Notes: a model not told the origin generated them from the letters alone. A DNA stretch of 51,830 nt from a virus (IMGVR_UViG_3300049926_000051:1-51830), one strand, 5' to 3'. Shown: positions 3,163-50,594, numbered from the stretch's first letter. Program-made: numbers and translations.

Positions 3163-4893
3163 GTGGGCCTATCACTCACTGAGCAGCTTCCGCTAGACGC
3201 GCTGATCTCGGTCCCTGCGAAGAGAACTCGCAAGGCGCGTGACTATCAGACCGCAGCAGTACGGGCGAATCTAGAGGCACTCTCTCGTGTCCGTGGCGTA
3301 CTGGACGTGTGCGCCACGGGCCTTGGCAAGACAGAGATCGGTTGTTGGACCATCGAGGATTGGGCCGCCCAGCAAGAAGGCGACATTCTGTGGTTGGCCC
3401 ACCGTGAGGAGCTTATTCGCGACGCCGCAACGCGCCTGCATCTTAGGACGGGCCTGCCGGTTTCGATCGAGATGGCAGACGAAGAATCGTGGGGTACCAG
3501 AATCGTTGTCGGCTCGGTCCAAACGCTGCGCGAGAAACGTCTCAAACGATTTCGCCCTGACCGCTTCTCTCTCATCGTCACCGATGAAGCGCACAGAAGC
3601 CCCGCGCCGTCATATCGCACGATCTTCAATTACTTTTCGAAGGCCAAGATCCTTGGGCTAACCGCCACTGCGGATCGGCTTGACGGAGTGGCGCAGGGCA
3701 CGGTCTACGACGAGGTCGCTTTTCGCAAGGACATCGATGAAGGGATCAGCGAAGGCTTCCTGGTCCCGATCGTCCCCATCGCCGCATTCATTGACTCGGT
3801 CAATCTCGGTGGAATCAAGACAGTTGCGGGCGACCTGGCCGAAGGCGAGCTCGAAGACGAGATGGTGCGGTCTGTTGCCGCAATCGCACGCAAGACATTC
3901 GATCTAGTCGGCGACCGTCGTACGCTCGTTTTCACGCCCGGCGTTGGTTCAGCGCACAAAGTCTGCGATGCGCTGAATGAGATCCGTTCAGGCTCGGCAC
4001 GGGTTGTCGACGGTGAGACACCAAAGGACATTCGTCGGGAGATTCTTCGAGCGCACCGCGCTGGAGAGTTTCAGTTTCTCATCAACTGTCTGGTGTTCAC
4101 CGAGGGCTACGATGACCCCGGTATCCAAGCGATAGTCAATGCGCGGCCGACTAAGTCGCGGGCGATGTATGTTCAGATCGCAGGGCGAGGTTTGCGCGTG
4201 CTGCCCGGTATCGGTGAATTGGCAACCGAAGATGAGCGTACCGCAGCGATCGCCGCTTCGCTCAAACCGAACTGTTTGCTCATTGACATCACCGGTCACC
4301 CCGGACGTCACAACCTAATCGGCCCCGTCGATCTCCTTGGCGGCAAGTTCCCTCCCGAGGTCAAGGAACGAGCGAAGAAGATCCTTGAGAAGGAGGGCGG
4401 CGACCTAACCCAAGTCGTTGAGAAAGCACGCAACCAACTCGTCTTCGAGGAATCGGAACGGCGGCGAAAGGCCGATGCCAAGCGAGCCGCGGAGGCCGAG
4501 GTCAACGCGCGAACTGCCGAGTTTGAGTTGTTCCGCGACAACCTCCGCGATCAGGGCATCGGGTTGGGCGACTTCAAGCCCGAGTGGCTAGGGCAGCAAC
4601 TCAATGAACGAGATCGCGAGTGGCTTGGTTCAAACAAGATCCCTGCGAAGGGCTTGTCACATTCTGATGTGCTCAAACTCCAACGATCGGCCGCGATGTG
4701 GCGCAAGATCAATGCTGCGACGTTTGCGCAACGAAGACTGCTTGCGCATCTCGGAATACCTGTTAAGCACAATATGCCACGGTCAGTTGCTGAGACACTG
4801 ATCGCGACCCTGAACGCTGGACCGGGTCCGATCACGAAGAAGCAACTCGACACCGTGTTGACTGCTGGTCGTGACGTAGGGGCCGAAGGATGA
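3163..4893 (+). CDS. SF2 (DEAH) DNA helicase
   Basis: ATGLGKT (Walker A), DEAH, TAT, FTEGYD, QIAGRGLR motifs. Confidence 0.93.
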   Translation: MGLSLTEQLPLDALISVPAKRTRKARDYQTAAVRANLEALSRVRGVLDVCATGLGKTEIGCWTIEDWAAQQEGDILWLAHREELIRDAATRLHLRTGLPVSIEMADEESWGTRIVVGSVQTLREKRLKRFRPDRFSLIVTDEAHRSPAPSYRTIFNYFSKAKILGLTATADRLDGVAQGTVYDEVAFRKDIDEGISEGFLVPIVPIAAFIDSVNLGGIKTVAGDLAEGELEDEMVRSVAAIARKTFDLVGDRRTLVFTPGVGSAHKVCDALNEIRSGSARVVDGETPKDIRREILRAHRAGEFQFLINCLVFTEGYDDPGIQAIVNARPTKSRAMYVQIAGRGLRVLPGIGELATEDERTAAIAASLKPNCLLIDITGHPGRHNLIGPVDLLGGKFPPEVKERAKKILEKEGGDLTQVVEKARNQLVFEESERRRKADAKRAAEAEVNARTAEFELFRDNLRDQGIGLGDFKPEWLGQQLNERDREWLGSNKIPAKGLSHSDVLKLQRSAAMWRKINAATFAQRRLLAHLGIPVKHNMPRSVAETLIATLNAGPGPITKKQLDTVLTAGRDVGAEG

Positions 4894-19042: not shown

Positions 19043-20491
19043 GTGGCGCTAGTTCCTCCCCGTCGAGCCGCTCAAGAACTGATCCGCCGGTCGCGCGTAG
19101 CAGCATTTGACCCGCGGGCGCTTTGCCATGCCGGCCAACTACCGTACACCGTCAGTCGCGCCAAGCGCAAGGTCGTACGTACGCCGAGGCGTGTCGGTAA
19201 GACGTACGCTGAGGCCATGGTGCTATTGCGGGGCGCCATGGAGCCCCCATGGGGCAATCAGTTGTATATCACGCTGAGCCTCAAGAATGCGAAGCGGATG
19301 GCATGGCCGACCATCAAGAAACTTAACAAGGAGTTCGACCTCGGCGGCCAGGTCAACGATGCCGAGGGAATGATTCGGTTTCCGAACCTTCCCAATGAAC
19401 CCATTATCTACCTCGGCGGGTGCAAAGACTCCGCAGAGATTGAGAAAATTCGTGGTTACGAGGGTGGCTTAAAGCGAGTCATCATCGACGAGGCACAGGC
19501 GATTCGCAAATCCCTGTTCGGCCCGCTGATCGAAGAGATCGTCGAGCCGGCCCTACTGGACTACAACGGTGAGTTGGACGTGGTCGGGACTCCCGGCGCC
19601 GTCAAGGCCGGTTACTTCCATGACATCGACGTTGGCGACAAGTCCGCAAGTTGGGAGCACTTCTTTTGGGACGCCTATGCCAATACCTTCCTTGCGGAAA
19701 AGCGAGGCCAGGCGACCGACGAGATGCTCGAGCAAGTCCGGCGAGAACACAACTGGCAAGAGGACTCGCCGCGGTATGTCCGTGAGTACCTTGGGCAGTG
19801 GGTTACCGACACCGACTCGCTTGCGCTGCATTACGATGCGGAGCGCAATAGGTGTGATTGGCAAAACGAACCTGTCCCTGGTTGGACCTACCTCCTGACC
19901 TTCGACATCGGATTTGAGGATGCCGACGCAATAGCCGTTCTGGGCTATCCTCCTAACGCCAGGAAGCTTCATCTCGTTCGCGAACTGATTACCCGCAAGC
20001 AGGGGATAACTGAGCTTGGAACGCAGCTCAAGACGTTATATGAGACCTATCACCCGTTGCAGGTTATCGGCGACTTGGGCGCACTGGGCAAGAAGATCGG
20101 CCACGAGCTAGAAGCGCGGTGGCACCTGCCCGTCGAGGCAGCAGAAAAGAGCCGCAAGGCGGAACACATCGAACTCCTGGACGACGGCTTGCGTACTGGC
20201 GCGATGCTGGCGCCACCTGACTCGGTGTTCGCGCAAGACTGCGCAATCGTGCAATGGGATGCTGACCAAAAAGCGAAGGGTAACCTCGTGTTCGACGCAT
20301 CGTTCCATAGTGACGTTGTAGATGCCTGCCTCTATGGCTACCGCGCTGCCTTCCACTGGACCGTTGACGACTCGGCGCAACCTGACGTCCCGATCGAAGT
20401 AGCGCAGCACCGTGAAGCCGTGCGGGCAGAGTTGCGCGAAGTAAGGCAGCAGGAAGACGACGCGTATGAACGGAACATGGGATGGGGATAA
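19043..20491 (+). CDS. terL: terminase large subunit
   Basis: PRRVGKT Walker A, IIDEAQ Walker B, GTP coupling motif, REYLGQW, and nuclease acids (FDIGFED, HSDVVDA). Confidence 0.93.
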   Translation: MALVPPRRAAQELIRRSRVAAFDPRALCHAGQLPYTVSRAKRKVVRTPRRVGKTYAEAMVLLRGAMEPPWGNQLYITLSLKNAKRMAWPTIKKLNKEFDLGGQVNDAEGMIRFPNLPNEPIIYLGGCKDSAEIEKIRGYEGGLKRVIIDEAQAIRKSLFGPLIEEIVEPALLDYNGELDVVGTPGAVKAGYFHDIDVGDKSASWEHFFWDAYANTFLAEKRGQATDEMLEQVRREHNWQEDSPRYVREYLGQWVTDTDSLALHYDAERNRCDWQNEPVPGWTYLLTFDIGFEDADAIAVLGYPPNARKLHLVRELITRKQGITELGTQLKTLYETYHPLQVIGDLGALGKKIGHELEARWHLPVEAAEKSRKAEHIELLDDGLRTGAMLAPPDSVFAQDCAIVQWDADQKAKGNLVFDASFHSDVVDACLYGYRAAFHWTVDDSAQPDVPIEVAQHREAVRAELREVRQQEDDAYERNMGWG

Positions 20492-20551
20492 AGGATAGGA
20501 ACCAAAAAAGCTGTACGTTCAAAGTCGCGTTGTCGTGCAATCGTTTCTCAT

Positions 20552-20650
20552 CGGGATGGGTGTGTTACTTGGACAAACACGGGCACTGATCAGCCTGCGG
20601 GAGAAAGTGAGACTACCCCGCTTGCAGGTTCGAATCCTGCCGTCCCGACC
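20552..20650 (+). tRNA. tRNA-like cloverleaf, long variable arm, degenerate anticodon arm
   Basis: Acceptor CGGGATG/CGTCCCG, then ACC; D stem GTGTT/AACAC with GG in the loop; T arm GCAGG-TTCGAAT-CCTGC; 8-nt loop ACTGATCA. Confidence 0.6.
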
Positions 20651-20689
20651 TAACGTCCGTCATACCCCGATTGCCCGTTAGTTGCGATC

Positions 20690-21300
20690 GGGTGCGCGCA
20701 AGCCAAGGCGAGCCATGCCTTTGGCACTTGCGAGTTATGGACCGTGGGGTGTCGTTCGTTTGAACGACGATGGCCGTCGTGAAGTTGTAAACCGGGGAAT
20801 GTGTTGGCTCGCGGCTGAAAAGCTCGCTGGAGCCATGCGCGACCAGTCGACGGAGCGAGAAATCGCCGAAGGCTGGAACTATCTCCCCGCAAAAGTTGGC
20901 GTCGTCCAGGACGCTCGGGGCCTTACATCCGCTAAGGGTGGTAGGCGTCAAACCCAAATGGCTGGACTAGACACGGGGCTACTACCTCGTGGTTTTGGGA
21001 TATCTATCCCACGGGAAGGATTGGCTCAGGGTCGCACGCCGCCGGGGACTACCGATAAGCCCCGGTACCAGTCTGATGGTCGCAGTCAGGGACCAGGCCC
21101 GATCAGTCGGAACACCGTAAGCGGTCAGAAGTCCCGCGATGTGCTGGGCTCACGAACTCGGTTCGTTGGTCGAGCACACCCCCGGGACCAGCAGCCGCCA
21201 GGCCGACGCACTACGTTACGGTTCGACTAGGTACGTCACGAGAGTGGGTATCTAGTACCATCTGCCACCCAAAGAATCCGGACAGAGAGCCGGAGACAGA
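20690..21300 (+). ncRNA. candidate large structured non-coding RNA
   Basis: More than a dozen consecutive hairpins, three with GNRA tetraloops, and nested multi-helix domains. Confidence 0.6.
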
Positions 21301-21359
21301 GGGGAGCACGGGGGTGTTAGCGGTCCGCCCAAATGCCAACATCGTAGTAAGGATTACAA

Positions 21360-21599
21360 ATGTTCTGGCACAAGAGAAAGCCTAAACCGCTAGCAAACGA
21401 AGTGGACATGGTTGCTAAGTTTGGCGCACCAGAGGGTTGTCAACTGGCACCGATACATTGCGTCCAACTGTTTCAGTCGATCCGCGAGGCTAGCAACGAA
21501 CCGCCGTTGTGGATCTGGAAGGCGACGATGTGGTGGTTGGATAAACACGGACTGTCCATCGACGCGACGATCAGGAAGGTAACTCACGAGAGCGTTTGA
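21360..21599 (+). CDS. hypothetical protein
   Basis: TAAGGA site before the ATG. Confidence 0.55.
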   Translation: MFWHKRKPKPLANEVDMVAKFGAPEGCQLAPIHCVQLFQSIREASNEPPLWIWKATMWWLDKHGLSIDATIRKVTHESV

Positions 21600-21607
21600 C
21601 CGTACCC

Positions 21608-21622
21608 GGGTGCGCCCGCGCC
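21608..21622 (+). promoter_or_regulatory. late-promoter-like motif, copy 3
   Basis: GGGTGCG-CC-CGCGCC, 6 nt before ATG 21629. Confidence 0.65.
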
Positions 21623-21628
21623 CGGTCA

Positions 21629-21916
21629 ATGGCATTCCCTAGCGCCGAAGAACTACGCGCCCTTCTCTCTGCTGCCCGCGACGCCGGGTGTACTCACCTC
21701 AAGATTTCGCCAACCGGCATCGAGGCGGAGTTTGCGCCCAAGTCGGTCCTCCAGGAGATCAACGAAACCGTCCCGCTGGCTTTCGATCCGCTGGATATCG
21801 TTCGTCGAGAGGTTGCCGCTCAGACGAAGACGTCGGCCGTTGACCTTTTCGACGTGGTCGCCTCCGGTGGTCGTATCGTCGATGCTGGCAACCCTGACCC
21901 GACGGCAGCCCAGTAA
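21629..21916 (+). CDS. small protein upstream of the portal
   Basis: MAFPSAEELRALLSAARDAG...; TAATG coupling to the portal. Confidence 0.7.
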   Translation: MAFPSAEELRALLSAARDAGCTHLKISPTGIEAEFAPKSVLQEINETVPLAFDPLDIVRREVAAQTKTSAVDLFDVVASGGRIVDAGNPDPTAAQ

Positions 21917-23808
21917 TGGGAGCCACGGGCGGCAACGCATTCCTGAGCCAGAACGGCCGCTGGTGGAATTCCGATGAGGCGTCGCTTCCGACCACGCTTG
22001 CCGCAGTGGCGGCTAATCTAGAATCCTACGACTTCGAGCGGCGTGCTCGTAACCTGGTCTTCGCGCGTCTAGCGACGAACCGAGATCTCCCGAACATCTA
22101 CGGCCTGAGCATCACGCGGTCGAACGTCCGCGCGCTGGACTTCAGCGACTGGCGAGCGCCGGTCTTCAATGTCGTTGGCTCGAGTGTCGAAACGCTGGTC
22201 AACAAAGTCGGGCGTAACAAGCCATGGATCCTGTTCTTGACCGACGGTGGCGACTTCAGCGCCCGCATGGCCGGCAAGAAAAAGTCCCGCTTCGTCGACG
22301 GCATCTTCCACGAAACCAACACGTATCGCCTGACTCGCCAGGCTTGCCAGGACGCGCTGACCTACGGCGACGGGCTCATCAAGGTTTCGGCATCGCTCGA
22401 CGGCAAGTCGATCGTCCATGACGTCGTCCTGCCTGACGAGATTCTGATCGACCCGTGGGACGCGCTGTATTTCGGCAAGTGGCCCCGATCTCTCATCCAT
22501 CGCACGTTCGTTTCGCGCACAGAGCTCCTGAGCATCTTCGGCGACGACGAAGCGATCCGCTTCGCGATCGAAACCGCGCCCGGTTCGTACCAAGGCCCGA
22601 TGTGGGCAGGCGGCGCAACCGGCAACCAGCACAACGCAATGGTTGCCGTACTCGAAGGATGGAAGCTTCCCGACGCTGACGGTACACCAGGGCGTCACGT
22701 GCTTTGTATATCGGATCGAGTTGCCCTGATCGACGAAAAGTACAAACGTAAGCGATTCCCGTTCGCCAAGATGGCGTGCGTTAGCGCGGGGCGTGGGTTC
22801 TGGAACATCGGCATCCCTGAGATTCTCGGGCCGTTCCAATCGAACATCAATCGCACTCAGATGGTGATCGACGAATGCCAACGACGCCTTGCGTCAGGGC
22901 GCTGGCTTGTCCCGACCACATCTGGTGTCACCGACGACGCCCTTGGCTCGCGGGCCGCGGGAATCATTCGCCACAACCCGAATCAGCCTCCCGTGTTCAT
23001 TACGCCAGCTGCAGTACCCCCTGAGCTCTATCGGCACCTTGAAGACACGATCCAGCGAGCCTACAAGCGAGTCGGTATCTCCGAACTCGCCGCTCAGGCG
23101 CAGAAGCCCGCTGGCCTGAACTCGGGCGAAGCACTGCGCACGTTCGAGAACAGCGAGTCCGAGCGTTACGTAACCCTCGGCATGGCACTTGAGGATTTCG
23201 TCCAGGATATCGCGACGCTCGATCTTGAATTGGCCGCTGAGATTGAGCCCAAGGTTCGGGCGCCGCGCGGTGGCGGCATCGACGTCATTGATTGGTCCGA
23301 GATCAAGGGACTCCGCGACTCCGACGCCATCATGAAGGCCTTCCCGGTCTCATCGCTTCCGACAACGCCCGCAGGTCGTTTGCAACGTGCGGCTGAGATG
23401 TTCCAGACCGGCCAAATCAGCAAAGACGACTACCTGCGAATCATCGATTATCCCGATACCCAATCGATCATCGATTTGCAGACCGCAAGCCGCGATGCTA
23501 TCGATTTCATGCTGGACAAAATCGTCGAGGAAGGCATGTTTGAGTCGCCCGAGCCCTACATGGACTTGACGCTTGCGATCACCGTGGCGCAAAACCGGTA
23601 CCTGCGCGAACGGACCCAAGGATGTCCGGAAGATCGTCTTGAGTTGCTTCGTCGCTTCATGGACTCCGCCAAGGATCTTCAGGACAAGATCAACGGAACT
23701 GGCCAGAATGCTGCCCCGGGCCAGCCGAACGTGAACCAGGCTCAAGCAACGGCCGCTGGTCTTCCTCCGCCTGTCCCGCCCGTGATTGGTGCGCCGAAGG
23801 CGGCTTAA
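21916..23808 (+). CDS. portal protein
   Basis: 630 aa after terL; FPF..., RVGISEL..QKPAGLNSGEAL portal-like motifs; P/Q/A-rich tail. Confidence 0.85.
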   Translation: MGATGGNAFLSQNGRWWNSDEASLPTTLAAVAANLESYDFERRARNLVFARLATNRDLPNIYGLSITRSNVRALDFSDWRAPVFNVVGSSVETLVNKVGRNKPWILFLTDGGDFSARMAGKKKSRFVDGIFHETNTYRLTRQACQDALTYGDGLIKVSASLDGKSIVHDVVLPDEILIDPWDALYFGKWPRSLIHRTFVSRTELLSIFGDDEAIRFAIETAPGSYQGPMWAGGATGNQHNAMVAVLEGWKLPDADGTPGRHVLCISDRVALIDEKYKRKRFPFAKMACVSAGRGFWNIGIPEILGPFQSNINRTQMVIDECQRRLASGRWLVPTTSGVTDDALGSRAAGIIRHNPNQPPVFITPAAVPPELYRHLEDTIQRAYKRVGISELAAQAQKPAGLNSGEALRTFENSESERYVTLGMALEDFVQDIATLDLELAAEIEPKVRAPRGGGIDVIDWSEIKGLRDSDAIMKAFPVSSLPTTPAGRLQRAAEMFQTGQISKDDYLRIIDYPDTQSIIDLQTASRDAIDFMLDKIVEEGMFESPEPYMDLTLAITVAQNRYLRERTQGCPEDRLELLRRFMDSAKDLQDKINGTGQNAAPGQPNVNQAQATAAGLPPPVPPVIGAPKAA

Positions 23809-24022: not shown

Positions 24023-25153
24023 ATGGATCCCGTCACGGCCGTTATCACGGACGCAGGTAGCGCGGCAACTGGAACCGCGGACGCCGTCGCTGGCAATCCG
24101 AATCCGTCTCTCAGTGCCGATATGGCAACTGGAACGGACACCGCTTCGACTCAGGGAGAATCGGATTCAAGCGGGGCTCATACCCCCGCCTCAGCGGGTT
24201 CGACTCCCGCCCCTGGCACCACTCCGGGCGAAACTCCGCCCGAGCCGCGCGCCAATGTGACGGCAAGGCTGGCCGCCCTGTCCCGGGAGAACCGGGAGGC
24301 AAAGCGCATCGCGCGCGAAGCCGGGAACGCCCGGAAAGCTGCTGAAGCCAGGGCGGCCGAAGCTGCTGCGAAGATATCGGACTTCGACGCCTTGATCGCC
24401 AAGGCAAAAGCCGACCCGTCAACTATCCCCGCTCTGGTCGATAAACTCGGTATCACGTTCGAGCGCATCGTTGAGTCTTATGCCGCGTCGGGAGAGGAAG
24501 CAACGGCCGAGGCAAAGACCGCGAAGGAATTGGCTGACATTCGCGCCGAACTGGCGGAGACGAAGAAGCTTCGTGAAACTGAACTGGCCGAGAAAACGCG
24601 GCGTGCTGAAGAGTCGCAGCGAACAGAAGTCATCTCGACTATCTCGCAGCGAATCGAAAAAGCAAAAGACAAGTTCGAAATCTGTGCGCGGCTCGGAGAC
24701 GAAGCGGCAAACGATGTTTTTAAGCTCGTGGTCGCGACCTGGGAGAAAGCCGGGCGCCCTGAGTTGATGCCGGGTGAGTTCGAAGAGGCTGTTGACGCGG
24801 CCATGGAAGTCACCGAGGCAGGGTACGAAGATCGCGGTAAGAAGCTCGCGAAGGCAGCGCGCGCAGCGGCTACGCCCGGGGCTACCGCAACCAACGATTC
24901 CAACAAAGGCGGTCTGGTCAAACAGGGCGTTGCTCTGCCTGACTCGCTGACTGCTAAACCACTGAGCGACAAAGATCAGGACATTCTAAGAGGGCTCACC
25001 GACAAGACGGCCCCGGCGTACGACTCCCAACGAGCGAAGCCGAGAACAATCAACTCATCTCTGGGTGGTTCCGCCCCTCCGCGCCAATCGACGCCGGGAG
25101 CGATGGACCCGCGCGACGCACTTAGGGAAGTGCTGCGCCCGTACGTCCGGTAA
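24023..25153 (+). CDS. capsid scaffolding protein
   Basis: Between portal and capsid; disordered N-terminus, A/E/K coiled coils, short C-terminal helix. Confidence 0.78.
   Translation: MDPVTAVITDAGSAATGTADAVAGNPNPSLSADMATGTDTASTQGESDSSGAHTPASAGSTPAPGTTPGETPPEPRANVTARLAALSRENREAKRIAREAGNARKAAEARAAEAAAKISDFDALIAKAKADPSTIPALVDKLGITFERIVESYAASGEEATAEAKTAKELADIRAELAETKKLRETELAEKTRRAEESQRTEVISTISQRIEKAKDKFEICARLGDEAANDVFKLVVATWEKAGRPELMPGEFEEAVDAAMEVTEAGYEDRGKKLAKAARAAATPGATATNDSNKGGLVKQGVALPDSLTAKPLSDKDQDILRGLTDKTAPAYDSQRAKPRTINSSLGGSAPPRQSTPGAMDPRDALREVLRPYVR
24150..24221 (+). tRNA. initiator tRNA-Met(CAT)-like element embedded in the scaffold CDS; D loop truncated
   Basis: Anticodon arm CGGGG-CTCATAC-CCCCG, 5-nt variable loop, T arm GCGGG-TTCGACT-CCCGC, 3' CCCTGGC-A-CCA. 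Confidence 0.6.
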
Positions 25154-41546: not shown

Positions 41547-42215
41547 TCATGGCGCCCTGCCAGTCTCGGGGAAATTCAGCGCTGCAAACTCACCGAACAC
41601 GGCCAGTGCCCATGCGTCATAGACCCGTGCCGCTGCTTCTGGATTGTCGAATGTCCCCAGCCAGCGACGGCGGCGGTAGAACCTAATATTTGCGATCCAC
41701 CGATTGGCCTTCTTGTGGAAATGAACGCCTCGATATCCGCTTCGATTGTTCTTATTGATTCTCGCGTTGGCCGAGTTCTGTGTGTGCGTAGCCGGCCTCA
41801 GATTGGAGATTCGACAGTCAAGCCGATTGCGGCTCTCGTGATCGAGTATCGCCGCGTCCTGTTTGCGGGCCAGTCTCCAGACAAAGCTGTGTAACGACAG
41901 GAGAACGCGCCTGCCATCCAGTGAGCGCACGGTGGTCGTCGCGTAATGAAAACCCTCCCTGGTCTTGTGCGCATACCAGGCGTGGCGACCAACCTCGCTT
42001 GCGAACTCGGTATCGATGAGCGCCTGCATACCCTTGTCGAGTTGCACGATCGAAACGCTGGCCACAACATCATGCTGAACGATCGGGCGCAGTTCTCTCG
42101 TCTTCAGCGGGGCCAATGGCCTTCCTGTCTGCGATTGTCGCCAGTGAGACATGCAGTATCCGTGCGCCATGTGTTTTCTGACGCAACCACCAAAAACACA
42201 GAGGCGCGCGCTCAT
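41547..42215 (-). CDS. HNH-AP2 homing endonuclease
   Basis: LDHESRNRLDCRISNLR (HNH), SGYRGV...W.A.I...LG.F...AAARVYD (AP2); N-terminal C/H finger. Confidence 0.92.
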   Translation of the reverse strand: MSARLCVFGGCVRKHMAHGYCMSHWRQSQTGRPLAPLKTRELRPIVQHDVVASVSIVQLDKGMQALIDTEFASEVGRHAWYAHKTREGFHYATTTVRSLDGRRVLLSLHSFVWRLARKQDAAILDHESRNRLDCRISNLRPATHTQNSANARINKNNRSGYRGVHFHKKANRWIANIRFYRRRRWLGTFDNPEAAARVYDAWALAVFGEFAALNFPETGRAP

Positions 42216-43069
42216 TTCCGCCTCCAAAGACCAGAACGCCACCCGGCGGCGTAGGCGAGGCGCTGGTGCTCAGCGAGAGTGACATCGAGGAAGTTGCCGT
42301 TCTCGTTGCTCCACCAATAGCAGCCGCCCTGTGCGCCGCAGTCGCACGCATCGCGAAACCTCACTTGCGCCCCCGCCTCGCGCGCGTGGCGCACGCTTCC
42401 ATCGAAACGATACACCGCTTGCAATCGACCTCGGCGAGCTGACTCGTGCAGAACACGCCCGCAGCCCCCGACGTAGTGCCGCATAAAGCTCGGTAGTCGT
42501 CAGTTTCCCGGTCGATAGCTAGCAGGTGCGTTTTCATCGCTTGACCCGCCTCGCGCGCGTGGCGCGGTCGAGCGTTACAACCAGGACTGTCAGCGCCATT
42601 CTGCCCGCGTCAATCGCCAAGCCGTCGCGCACGGCCCGCAGCGTCTTCAGCGCCTCCCGTTGCAGCGCGCGGATTCGACGGCGTTCAAGAGTAGCGCCAT
42701 CCTCCTCGCCAACCTCGAAACCGGCGTCCCACGCGGCATCGACTCGCTTGTCGGTTTCGCTTTTCAAGCTCCCTCCGTTCCGCGGCGCTTGAGGCTGGCG
42801 CAGTACAGACAGTTGCCAACGTCTCTATCAGCTCGTGATAGCGCCATACATTCGACCGAGCAGTAGTCGTCGTTGCGTAGGTCGCGACTAGCCTCACCCC
42901 GTTCCCGCGCCTCGGCGATGGTTTGGGTATACGATTCCGCAAGTTGGTCGCAGTGCCAGCCATGCGACCACCCATGCGATGCGCACCACGGCATACCGTT
43001 ACGCTCGGCCCAGTCGTGCGCCAGTCGCCGACCGTGCCGCCTATCCTCATCGGTGATACGGGAGCTCAT
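42212..43069 (-). other. four small coupled hypothetical genes (42212-42364, 42361-42537, 42534-42767, 42764-43069)
   Basis: Successive ATGA, GTGA and TTGA overlaps. Confidence 0.55.
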
Positions 43070-49619: not shown

Positions 49620-50594
49620 TTGGGTATTACCGACGACGAGTTAATAGCTCGCGCGCTGGAGATAGTTAAGCAGAGAGTTGCGGGTACTAGCGCACCTTCG
49701 CTTACCGTCGCGCAGTTGTACGACCTATATGAGGCGGATCACAACCATACGCGTGGGTGGCGTGTGGTTGGTGGTCGCCTGCGCATGCTTCGGGATACCG
49801 TCTACGCTGACGGCATCCCATGCATTGGTGTGCGCGATGTGATGAGCCTCCGCCCTCTCGACTGGGAGGACTACCGGCGATATCTCGCGGCGCAGGAGTT
49901 CGCCGTTGGACGAAAGCGATCGGCTTGGACGGTCGCCTTACACCTGATCTCGCTCAAGACGATGATCAATTGGGCGGTTGAATCGGGACGCTTGCCGTAC
50001 AACCCGCTCGACCGGGCGAAAGCTAACGCCAAGAGCAAGCGAGAGATCGCGCCGACAGAGGCGCAGATATCGCTGCTACTGTCGCAGGCTGACCTACGTA
50101 TGCGCTATGTGATCTTGGCCGCATGCGACGCGGGCATGCGCCGAGACGAACTCCGGCTCTGCGAACGCGCCTGGGTAGACCGCAAGGCGAAGCAGATCAA
50201 GCTAGACGCCAAGGTCTGTAAGCTTCGTAAGGGCCGTGTCGTCCCGGCTACCACGCGTCTCCTGGACGCAATAGCCGCGATTCCTGAGCATGTTCGGCTC
50301 CCTTGGATACTGACCAACCCAGTGACAGAAGCGGCCTACAGCGACAGCCTGTTGGATCGCAATTTTCGCGATCTCGCCGATAGCGTCGGCCTGATCGGAG
50401 TGCGTATCCACGACTTGCGGCATGCGTGCGCAACTCACATGGTCGCACGCGGTATTCGCCTAACTCGCGTGCAGAAGATCCTTGGCCACGAGCGGCTTGA
50501 GACGACATTCCGTTACGTCAATGATCAGGCCGAAGACCTGAGCGAGGTCATCGCCGTCTTTGAAGCCGGGATCGAAAAAGACAAGCGGCGCTAG
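49620..50594 (+). CDS. int: tyrosine recombinase / integrase
   Basis: GMRRDEL (R), K, HDLRH, LGH, RY catalytic residues. Confidence 0.93.
   Translation: MGITDDELIARALEIVKQRVAGTSAPSLTVAQLYDLYEADHNHTRGWRVVGGRLRMLRDTVYADGIPCIGVRDVMSLRPLDWEDYRRYLAAQEFAVGRKRSAWTVALHLISLKTMINWAVESGRLPYNPLDRAKANAKSKREIAPTEAQISLLLSQADLRMRYVILAACDAGMRRDELRLCERAWVDRKAKQIKLDAKVCKLRKGRVVPATTRLLDAIAAIPEHVRLPWILTNPVTEAAYSDSLLDRNFRDLADSVGLIGVRIHDLRHACATHMVARGIRLTRVQKILGHERLETTFRYVNDQAEDLSEVIAVFEAGIEKDKRR

What the first reader, a model, noticed from the sequence alone, without database searches (positions are those of the whole stretch)
20690..21300. Large, densely structured RNA candidate between terminase and portal
Seen: about 600 nt that fold by eye almost end to end. 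Hairpins at 20697-20732 and 20751-20768. A three-way junction closed by CGGGGA(20793)/TCCCCG(20884) carries two GAAA-capped helices (20805-20835, 20843-20876). Further hairpins at 20920-20946, 20972-20991, 20996-21011, 21042-21065, 21067-21080, 21099-21110 and 21114-21125. A three-tier helix at 21131-21188 (GTCCCG/CGGGAC, TGTGCT/AGCACA, ACGAAC/GTTCGT), a GAGA-capped long helix at 21226-21256, and 21277-21295. Known: GNRA loops mark tertiary-folded RNAs; GOLLD and ROOL are large phage RNAs near tRNAs; phi29 uses a packaging RNA. Inference: a possibly new large phage ncRNA, whose position between terL and the portal suggests a role in packaging or head assembly.
Basis: partly seen in the sequence, partly recalled or inferred. 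Interest (0 to 1): 0.88.

Follow-up and report, generated by a model that had tools for sequence, protein, structure and literature searches.

The report
Small phage gene plus structured RNA
The supposed 600-base phage RNA is really a small conserved protein gene followed by a roughly 300-base folded non-coding RNA element of unknown family that is so far seen in only one other phage.

Summary
It is not one 600-nt RNA.

**Coding part.** The 5' third (about 20715-20903) encodes a small protein domain with 65 homologues. Identity by codon position is coding-like. The three-way junction with GAAA loops is not kept in 7 homologous genes.

**RNA part.** The 3' half (about 21027-21326) is non-coding. 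All six frames carry stops, and the indels against its homologue break frame. One otherwise unrelated viral contig (L134) shares it, again just after the same small gene. There it is more conserved (67-73% nt) than the gene (52% nt).

**Structure.** A consensus fold of 54 pairs has 5 compensatory changes and no broken pair. The 107-nt central arm (21105-21211) beats all 500 column shuffles (z -4.6). The whole element is only marginal (z -1.7).

**Family and function.** No Rfam family matches, even at E 10. With two sequences and no RNA data, function is inferred: a structured RNA travelling with the small protein as a portable cassette, probably its binding or regulatory target. A packaging role is unsupported. 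A degenerate tRNA-Pro-like element lies at 20551-20648.

The parts
19043..20491 (+). Large terminase gene (terL), left neighbour.
   Evidence: 267 homologues at E <= 0.001, several carrying terminase Pfam domains. Pfam Terminase_6N scores 20.6 bits, just under its cut-off of 22.
20551..20648 (+). tRNA-like element derived from tRNA-Pro. The 9-bp acceptor stem and the T arm are intact. The D and anticodon parts are replaced, and there is no canonical anticodon loop.
   Evidence: Rfam tRNA-Sec 24 bits (gathering 47), E 0.045. ARAGORN does not call it. Its 3' 25-mer is identical to the 3' end of tRNA-Pro(TGG) genes in two viral contigs, L128 and L129. Fold z is -1.86.
20715..20903 (+). Small protein gene. 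The ATG at 20715 has AAGG 6 nt upstream. The conserved domain is about 20742-20900 (W.VVRVNDDGRREVVN.GMC..AAEKVAGA.RD.STE.EI..GWNYLP). The formal ORF runs on to the TAG at 21228-21230 through the RNA. That tail looks non-coding.
   Evidence: 65 homologues at E <= 0.001 and 15 at <= 1e-10 among 1.84 billion representatives, all matching query residues about 20-75; tails after GWNYLP are unalignable. Identity by codon position is 2 > 1 > 3 against all 7 homologous loci. GC by codon position of aa 79-182 (0.68/0.63/0.54) is unlike the phage's genes. AlphaFold gives a beta-beta-alpha-alpha-beta fold with pLDDT 79-86 over the domain. No Pfam or PHROG family.
20904..21026 (+). Spacer between the domain and the RNA core. 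It has local hairpins (for example 20920-20946) and is poorly conserved against L134.
   Evidence: Alignment A3. Sliding z for the windows starting 20950 and 21025 is -0.84 and +0.28.
21027..21326 (+). Conserved structured non-coding RNA core (homologue: L134 3289-3556).
   Evidence: blastn 72.7% over 183 nt, E 6e-20, plus a 29-nt block at 86%. 178 of 267 ungapped columns are identical. The consensus fold has 54 pairs, 5 compensatory and 0 broken. Every one of the six frames has at least one stop in both sequences, and 6 of 7 indels are not multiples of three. No Rfam match at E <= 10.
21033..21044 (+). 5' strand of the proposed closing helix P1. It pairs with 21309-21322.
   Evidence: Predicted by RNAalifold and independently in the single-sequence MFE folds of both the window and L134. 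All 9 pairs are invariant, so there is no covariation for or against it.
21045..21062 (+). It competes with P1 for CCG.
   Evidence: The stem is invariant in the two sequences.
21078..21104 (+). Hairpin P3.
   Evidence: 7 pairs, 2 of them changed on one side only.
21105..21211 (+). Central arm. This is a long irregular hairpin made of P4 21106-10/21203-07, P5 21115-16/21201-02, P6 21121-25/21194-98, P7 21131-34/21184-88 and P8 21141-56/21162-77. Its unpaired AACA, GUAA and a 5x5 internal loop (CAGAA opposite CAGCA) are near-identical in the two sequences.
   Evidence: All 5 compensatory pairs lie here: 1 in P4, 1 in P6 and 3 in P8. Alignment column-shuffle z is -4.59, 0 of 500 (+ strand), and -2.93, 2 of 500 (- strand). 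Both single-sequence MFE folds give the same architecture.
21212..21296 (+). Variable region. It includes the window-specific GAGA-capped helix 21226-21256 and the hairpin 21277-21295.
   Evidence: L134 has 7-nt and 21-nt deletions here and a CAGG loop in place of GAGA.
21297..21326 (+). Conserved 3' block (GAGCACGGGGGU..UAGCGGU) holding the 3' strand of P1 (21309-21322).
   Evidence: 86% identity over 29 nt against L134. Alignment A5.
21360..21599 (+). orf79, the first ORF after the RNA (AAGGA 6 nt before the ATG). It is not homologous to the ORF that follows the RNA in L134.
   Evidence: No Pfam or PHROG family.
21596..21916 (+). orf106, conserved immediately upstream of the portal gene in relatives L097 and L115.
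   Evidence: tblastn 37% and 55% identity. ORF maps.
21916..23808 (+). Portal gene, right neighbour.
   Evidence: Pfam SU10_portal, 34 bits (cut-off 30), E 1.5e-8.

Best explanation
The finding covers two different things on the + strand of a temperate soil phage, both inside a lineage-specific insert between terL and the portal gene.

1. 20715 to about 20903 is a real small protein gene. It belongs to an unnamed family with the motifs NDDGR and GWNYLP. Its local RNA folds are incidental.
2. About 21027-21326 is a structured non-coding RNA of roughly 300 nt. A closing helix encloses two hairpins and a 107-nt irregular arm whose internal-loop nucleotides are nearly invariant.

Shown: the gene is coding. 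The 300-nt element is non-coding. It is more conserved than the gene. It keeps its pairs through compensatory changes. It has travelled together with the gene between two otherwise unrelated phages.

Inferred: it is transcribed as part of the rightward late transcript. It acts as an RNA whose conserved loops are recognised by a partner, most likely the small protein encoded just upstream. The pair would then be a portable protein-plus-RNA-target cassette that sets expression or processing of whatever lies downstream. I put about 0.3 on that specific mechanism. The stated confidence refers to the composite anatomy (coding gene plus genuine conserved structured RNA).
For: Coding part:
- 65 homologues align only to residues about 20-75.
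- Identity by codon position is 2 > 1 > 3 in 7 of 7 comparisons.
- The window's own fold of 20745-20903 is kept in only 57% of cells over 8 genes, window included, against 34-44% for slid controls; its closing helix is kept in 40%.

RNA part:
- Homology to L134 at 72.7% over 183 nt, E 6e-20.
- Between the same two phages, nt identity is 67% for the core, 71% for the arm (76 of 107 columns) and 52% for the coding domain.
- L134's small ORF stops 112 nt before the element.
- There are stops in all six frames of both copies, plus indels of 1, 1, 4, 1, 7, 21 and 1 nt.
- 54 consensus pairs, 5 compensatory, 0 broken. 8 pairs use G-U in at least one sequence, which only works on the + strand.
- Slid controls give 0 compensatory pairs, and 12 of 500 shuffles reach the observed value.
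- The arm has z -4.59, 0 of 500.
- The window core folds at z -2.72 on + and -0.39 on -.

Module:
- tblastx and blastn of the whole 31-kb L134 contig against the window give only the gene and the RNA as clear matches.
- That contig has no relative of this terL.
- A second, different conserved non-coding stretch of about 300 nt follows the same gene family in L131-L133 (77-78% identity with 1-nt indels; z -3.03, 0 of 200).
Against: - There are only two sequences, and the consensus structure was derived from those same two. The compensatory count is therefore partly circular.
- The whole-element column-shuffle test is marginal: z -1.72, 7 of 200.
- L134's copy alone folds no better than its shuffles: z -0.46, 68 of 200 on +, and -1.23 on -.
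- The arm is also better than shuffles on the - strand (z -2.93). A DNA-level or antisense reading is therefore not excluded by energy alone.
- P1 and P2 never vary.
- There is no expression data.
- In the window the small ORF has no stop before 21228. Ribosomes would read through two thirds of the RNA, which fits poorly with a stably folded RNA on the same transcript.
- Three of the seven other viral loci with the gene (L135, L136, L137) have no such conserved non-coding stretch after it, so protein and RNA are not obligate partners.
- No promoter-like or + strand terminator-like site flanks the element.
Confidence: 0.62

Rival explanations
1. Stand-alone trans-acting or self-assembling non-coding RNA. 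It would be an orphan in the manner of GOLLD or ROOL, processed out of the late transcript, with the upstream tRNA-like element as a possible processing signal. Its function would not depend on the small protein.
For: - Near-invariant loop nucleotides with covarying helices.
- A tRNA-like element with an intact acceptor and T arm 380 nt upstream.
- No expression platform touches the next gene's ribosome-binding site.
- The gene family often occurs without this RNA.
Against: - In both known cases the RNA follows the same small gene at similar spacing (124 and 112 nt).
- L134 has no tRNA-like element.
- No promoter or terminator defines a separate transcript.
- No Rfam model matches.
Confidence: 0.2
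2. Cis-regulatory leader (riboswitch-like or translational operator) for the ORF that follows it: orf79 in the window, and a different 79-aa ORF in L134.
For: In both phages the conserved 3' block ends shortly before the next ORF's Shine-Dalgarno sequence and ATG: 37 nt before the ATG in the window and 28 nt in L134. Many phage candidate RNAs lie directly upstream of genes (PMC10690425: passages and section 2.5 read).
Against: - The two downstream ORFs are unrelated.
- No + strand terminator-like site was found, and the last conserved helix does not reach the ribosome-binding site.
- The element tracks the upstream gene, not the downstream one.
Confidence: 0.15
3. A DNA-level site rather than an RNA. 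Examples are a terminase recognition (pac/cos-like) region, a promoter/operator cluster for late genes, or an origin whose inverted repeats are kept for protein binding.
For: - The small gene usually lies 0.6-5 kb upstream of terL in other phages, that is, in the packaging or late-control neighbourhood.
- The arm also beats shuffles on the - strand (z -2.93), and so does the L131/L132 element (z -2.36).
Against: - Compensatory changes occur in pairs about 100 nt apart (P4, P6), and G-U pairs are valid only on the + strand.
- The two phages share no detectable terminase, so a shared terminase site is unlikely.
- The window's - strand fold is at shuffle level.
Confidence: 0.1
4. The whole ORF 20682-21230 is a genuine 171-182-aa protein. 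On this reading the apparent RNA conservation is conservation of its C-terminal region.
For: - The frame is open for 182 codons, and the source's own gene call (P0121, 171 aa) covers it.
- tblastn aligned residues 22-168 to L134 at 36%.
Against: - In L134 that frame is closed by TGA at 3175 and again inside the conserved block.
- Frame-breaking indels occur inside conserved blocks.
- No homologue aligns to the tail in 1.84 billion representatives.
- GC by codon position is non-coding-like.
- 73% nt identity against 36% apparent aa identity is the reverse of what coding gives.
Confidence: 0.04

Closest known systems
GOLLD and ROOL (large ornate RNAs, often in phages or prophages and near tRNA genes)
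   Same: Phage-borne, multi-helix, conserved unpaired nucleotides, unknown biochemical role, and a tRNA-like element nearby. That these RNAs are phage-associated and form RNA-only assemblies is taken from the abstract of PMC12286853 in the search listing and from recall.
   Different: No match to any Rfam model, even at E 10. It is about 300 nt rather than about 600-800 nt (sizes recalled). It is tied to a specific small protein gene. Only two examples are known.
phi29-type packaging RNA (pRNA)
   Same: A phage RNA near head and packaging genes.
   Different: No Rfam match. The element is absent from the closest terL/portal relatives and present in a phage with an unrelated terminase. There is thus no link to a particular portal or motor. 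Ring formation and portal binding could not be tested.
Autoregulatory protein-RNA operator pairs (ribosomal-protein leaders, T4 RegA or gp32 operators, lambda N-nut; all recalled)
   Same: A small protein is encoded next to a structured RNA with conserved loops on the same transcript. This is the proposed way of working.
   Different: Here the RNA lies downstream of the protein gene, is far larger than typical operators, and binding is untested. The protein has no known RNA-binding fold: best Foldseek E 0.38 and no Pfam family.
Candidate structured RNAs (csRNAs) predicted from IMG/VR intergenic regions (PMC10690425)
   Same: The same kind of object from the same data source: conserved intergenic phage structures, many tRNA-like or upstream of structural genes (passages and section 2.5 read).

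Membership tests
Any Rfam 15 family (by recall this includes GOLLD, ROOL, OLE, RNase P, group I/II introns, tmRNA, SRP RNA, phage pRNA) | Match to the family covariance model at or above its gathering score. | tested here: not met
   0 matches at gathering over the whole window. 0 matches at E <= 10 for window 21020-21340 and for L134 3280-3575. Over 20350-21500 only the tRNA-like hit and one E 9.7 hit appeared.
phi29-type pRNA | Conserved association with one portal/terminase lineage, and binding to the portal as an oligomeric ring. | tested here: not met
   The association fails. The element is absent in L115 and L097 (portal segments 85% and 79% identical). It is present in a contig without a related terL. 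Ring formation and binding are not testable with these tools.
tRNA (for 20551-20648) | Full cloverleaf with a 7-nt anticodon loop, called by tRNA finders or by Rfam tRNA at gathering. | tested here: not met
   ARAGORN makes no call. The best clan member is tRNA-Sec at 24 bits against a gathering score of 47. The acceptor and T arm are identical to phage tRNA-Pro(TGG) genes, but the middle is replaced.
NDDGR / GWNYLP small protein family (unnamed; no Pfam or PHROG) | A domain of about 53 aa with the near-invariant NDDGR, AG..RD and GWN motifs. | tested here: met
   65 hits at E <= 0.001. D29, G31, A45, A49, G50, R53, D54, G64 and W65 are invariant in 23 sequences. The codon-position pattern is coding-like.
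Protein-coding sequence (for 21027-21326) | An open frame kept between homologues, with indels in multiples of three. | tested here: not met
   There are 1-5 stops in every one of the 6 frames of both copies. Indels are 1, 1, 4, 1, 7, 21 and 1 nt. No protein homologue was found for the frame-2 translation.
Conserved structured RNA (generic) | Statistically supported covariation over many independent sequences. | tested here: inconclusive
   Only 2 sequences are available. 5 compensatory pairs, 0 broken, of 54; 12 of 500 shuffles reach this. The arm has z -4.59, 0 of 500. The whole core has z -1.72, 7 of 200.
Riboswitch or attenuator-type leader | An expression platform: an intrinsic terminator, or a helix that sequesters the ribosome-binding site of the next gene. 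| tested here: not met
   No + strand terminator-like site in window 20300-22000 or L134 2700-3900. The last conserved helix ends 37 nt (window) and 28 nt (L134) before the ATG and does not reach the Shine-Dalgarno sequence.

The most novel reading that the evidence does not exclude
A new class of roughly 300-nt ornate phage RNA forms a specific ribonucleoprotein with a new family of about 60-aa phage proteins. The pair moves between unrelated soil phages as a self-contained cassette that controls late or packaging-module expression. On this reading the different conserved RNA after the same gene in L131-L133 is a second member of the same protein-plus-RNA system.
Probability: 0.25. Interest if true: 0.65.

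Novelty: new member of a known kind. Interest (0 to 1): 0.42.

Why it matters
If the 300-nt element is confirmed, it adds a phage structured RNA that no Rfam model matches. It comes with an unusually clear handle for experiments: a small, well-conserved protein encoded right beside it, and a second lineage (L131-L133) in which the same gene family is followed by a different conserved folded stretch. That would make "small phage protein plus cognate RNA" cassettes directly testable. The practical lesson for the scan is that GC-rich phage DNA gives convincing hairpins by eye even inside real genes. A third of this "RNA" is a protein gene.

Tried and rejected
**Searches for more homologues**
- blastn 'distant' of 20492-21360 against 50,697 phage records: no match.
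- blastn and nhmmer against 125 loci around terL relatives: no hit.
- nhmmer profile of the two-sequence alignment against all 142 loci then held: only the window (as L001) and the L134 contig (L134, L141).
- Covariance model R1 over 32 sources (290 kb): only the window and L134. Other hits were at most 8 bits.
- R1 with filters off on L131 and L132: nothing real.
- Pattern scans of viral contigs with three conserved blocks: only L134's contig is a true homologue. The other four loci share only about 16-24 nt around the pattern.
- Genome contigs: 0 for the RNA pattern and 0 confirmed relatives of the small protein.
- Frame-2 translation of the RNA as a protein query: no hit.

**Expression and earlier notes**
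- Sequencing runs: one DNA run, possibly the source sample. No RNA holder is listed.

**The small protein**
- No Pfam or PHROG family.
- Foldseek against the PDB: best E 0.38.
- The Atlas gave only leads under 0.9, apart from an unnamed viral cluster at 0.90.

**Ideas rejected**
- Mobile-element ends: only short two-copy repeats, judged chance.
- Homology between the window/L134 RNA and the L131-L133 stretch: they share a few words, but MAFFT and R1 give no credible alignment.
- A resemblance of the 5x5 internal loop to the protein-binding loop of SRP RNA domain IV is recall only. No SRP model matched, so it is not claimed.
- attP reading of the tRNA-like element: the integrase is 29 kb away, and both acceptor strands are present.

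Full report
**Setting**

The window is a whole IMG/VR virus record of 51,830 bp, rated 98% complete. It carries an integrase, a helicase, a primase and an HNH endonuclease.

The large terminase gene is at 19043-20491 and the portal gene at 21916-23808, both on the + strand. Between them lie:
- a tRNA-like element (20551-20648);
- ORF 20682-21230;
- a gap;
- orf79 (21360-21599);
- orf106 (21596-21916).

Yes as to the hairpins.

| Test | + strand | - strand |
|---|---|---|
| 611 nt, 20 shuffles | z -3.62, 0 of 20 as good | z -0.54, 5 of 20 |

In 150-nt windows the + strand excess sits at 20800-20949 (z -4.0) and 21100-21399 (z -2.4 to -3.5). It does not run through the whole stretch.

**The 5' third is a gene**

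An exhaustive HMMER search with the 182-aa ORF found 65 proteins at E <= 0.001 (15 at <= 1e-10). Nearly all match only residues about 20-75, typically at the N-terminus of proteins of 57-174 aa.

The alignment shows a domain of about 53 aa with near-invariant NDDGR, AG..RD and GWN(Y)LP motifs. The tails after it cannot be aligned.

Seven viral loci carry the gene. Against each of them, identity to the window by codon position is 2 > 1 > 3.

The window's fold of 20745-20903 includes the junction with the two GAAA loops. It is kept in only 57% of cells over the 8 genes, window included. Slid controls give 34-44%, and the closing helix is kept in 40%. These folds are therefore incidental to a GC-rich coding sequence.

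AlphaFold with 63 sequences gives a beta-beta-alpha-alpha-beta domain with pLDDT about 80-86. There is no significant PDB match and no Pfam or PHROG family.

**The ORF tail is not coding**

- GC by codon position for aa 79-182 is 0.68/0.63/0.54. The phage's genes show a low second and a high third position.
- No homologue aligns to the tail.
- In the homologous locus L134 the small ORF ends with TGA at 3175-3177, 112 nt before the shared downstream sequence.

**The 3' half is a conserved non-coding element**

L134 (IMGVR_UViG_3300006854_000042) matches window 21027-21205 at 72.7% over 183 nt (E 6e-20) and 21297-21324 at 86% (alignments).

Over the core, 178 of 267 ungapped columns are identical (67%), and 76 of 107 columns in the arm. 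The coding domain of the same two phages is only 52% identical in nucleotides and 40% in amino acids.

All six frames have stops in both copies. The indels are 1, 1, 4, 1, 7, 21 and 1 nt.

The rest of the 31-kb L134 contig shows no clear similarity to the window and has no relative of this terL. Gene and RNA have therefore moved together between dissimilar phages.

The closest available relatives of the window's terL and portal lack the insert. L115 has terL, 23 nt, an orf106 homologue and the portal. L097 has other ORFs there, including an HNH endonuclease.

**Structure**

RNAalifold on the pair gives 54 pairs:
- a closing helix P1 (21033-21044 with 21309-22);
- hairpins P2 and P3;
- a long arm P4-P8 (21105-21211);
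- two small hairpins in a variable region.

Five pairs changed on both sides and stayed paired: one in P4, one in P6 and three in P8. Six changed on one side only. None is broken. Eight use G-U, which fits only the + strand.

| Test | Result |
|---|---|
| Pairs slid by 1-3 columns | 0 compensatory pairs |
| 3'-letter shuffles reaching the observed values | 12 of 500 |
| Arm, column shuffle, + strand | z -4.59, 0 of 500 |
| Arm, column shuffle, - strand | z -2.93, 2 of 500 |
| Whole core, column shuffle, + strand | z -1.72, 7 of 200 |
| Whole core, column shuffle, - strand | z -0.82 |
| Window core alone, + / - | z -2.72 / -0.39 |
| L134 copy alone, + / - | z -0.46 / -1.23 |

Both single-sequence MFE folds independently give P1, P2 and the same arm.

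The support is good for the arm, suggestive for the whole, and limited by having two sequences from which the structure itself was derived.

**Known families**

No Rfam 15 family matches at gathering. None matches at E <= 10 on either copy.

A large survey has predicted thousands of candidate structured RNAs in IMG/VR (PMC10690425; passages and section 2.5 read). Its lists are in supplements I could not open, so prior prediction of this element cannot be excluded.

**How far it spreads**

Model R1, profile searches and three pattern scans found no third copy in the loci held, in IMG/VR or in one genome per prokaryote species.

No RNA sequencing run holding the stretch is listed.

**A parallel case**

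In L131-L133 the same gene family is followed by a different conserved stretch of about 300 nt. L131 and L132 are 77% identical with single-base indels. Column-shuffle z is -3.03, 0 of 200 on +, and -2.36 on -.

R1 does not match it.

In L135-L137 no such stretch is seen.

In most loci the gene lies 0.6-5 kb upstream of terL.

**Interpretation**

Shown: a coding small gene followed by a conserved, non-coding, + strand element with a well-supported 107-nt arm. The two are co-inherited.

Inferred: the element is transcribed within the rightward late transcript, because no promoter-like or + strand terminator-like site flanks it. Its near-invariant loops (AACA, GUAA, CAGAA opposite CAGCA, and the 3' block) are then read by a partner. 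The adjacent protein is the most economical candidate. That gives a portable protein-plus-RNA cassette acting on downstream expression or processing.

I give that mechanism about 0.3. The rivals are:

| Rival | Probability |
|---|---|
| Stand-alone ncRNA | 0.2 |
| Leader for the next ORF | 0.15 |
| DNA-level site | 0.1 |
| Genuine long protein | 0.04 |

The rest of the probability goes to no function.

A packaging role, as in phi29 pRNA, has no support. The element does not track any terminase or portal lineage.

One point against a stably folded RNA is that the window's small ORF has no stop until 21228. Translating ribosomes would then unfold two thirds of the element.

**Verdict**

What remains is a candidate new phage RNA of about 300 nt, not 600. 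It is attached to a new small-protein family and is known from two phages.

Noticed in passing
window 20551-20648: A tRNA-like element. Its 5' acceptor strand and its 3' 25 nt (T arm plus acceptor) match phage tRNA-Pro(TGG) genes exactly, but the D and anticodon region is replaced (98 nt, no canonical anticodon loop). Two other viral contigs (L127, L130) carry only the 3' half of the same tRNA.
   Followed up: partly
window 24150-24221: ARAGORN calls a tRNA-Met(cat) here, inside ORF 24023-25153. Rfam's tRNA model gives only 20.8 bits (gathering 29), so the call is doubtful.
   Followed up: partly
L131 1905-2240; L132 1420-1760; L133 3220-3560: A second, different conserved and well-folding non-coding stretch of about 300 nt directly after the same small-gene family. 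Gene callers have translated it as odd R/G/P-rich protein tails.
   Followed up: partly
L097 716-2254 and L115 528-864: The terL-portal interval is a variable insertion hot spot in this phage lineage. L115 has only an orf106 homologue there. L097 has extra ORFs, including an HNH endonuclease.
   Followed up: partly
L134 3174-3177: The small gene's TGA stop overlaps an ATG (ATGA) that opens a 91-codon frame running through the RNA. Its composition looks non-coding, and the frame is not kept in the window.
   Followed up: partly
window 49620-50594 and 41547-42242 (-): An integrase and an HNH endonuclease, so the phage is probably temperate. The integrase is 29 kb from the tRNA-like element.
   Followed up: no
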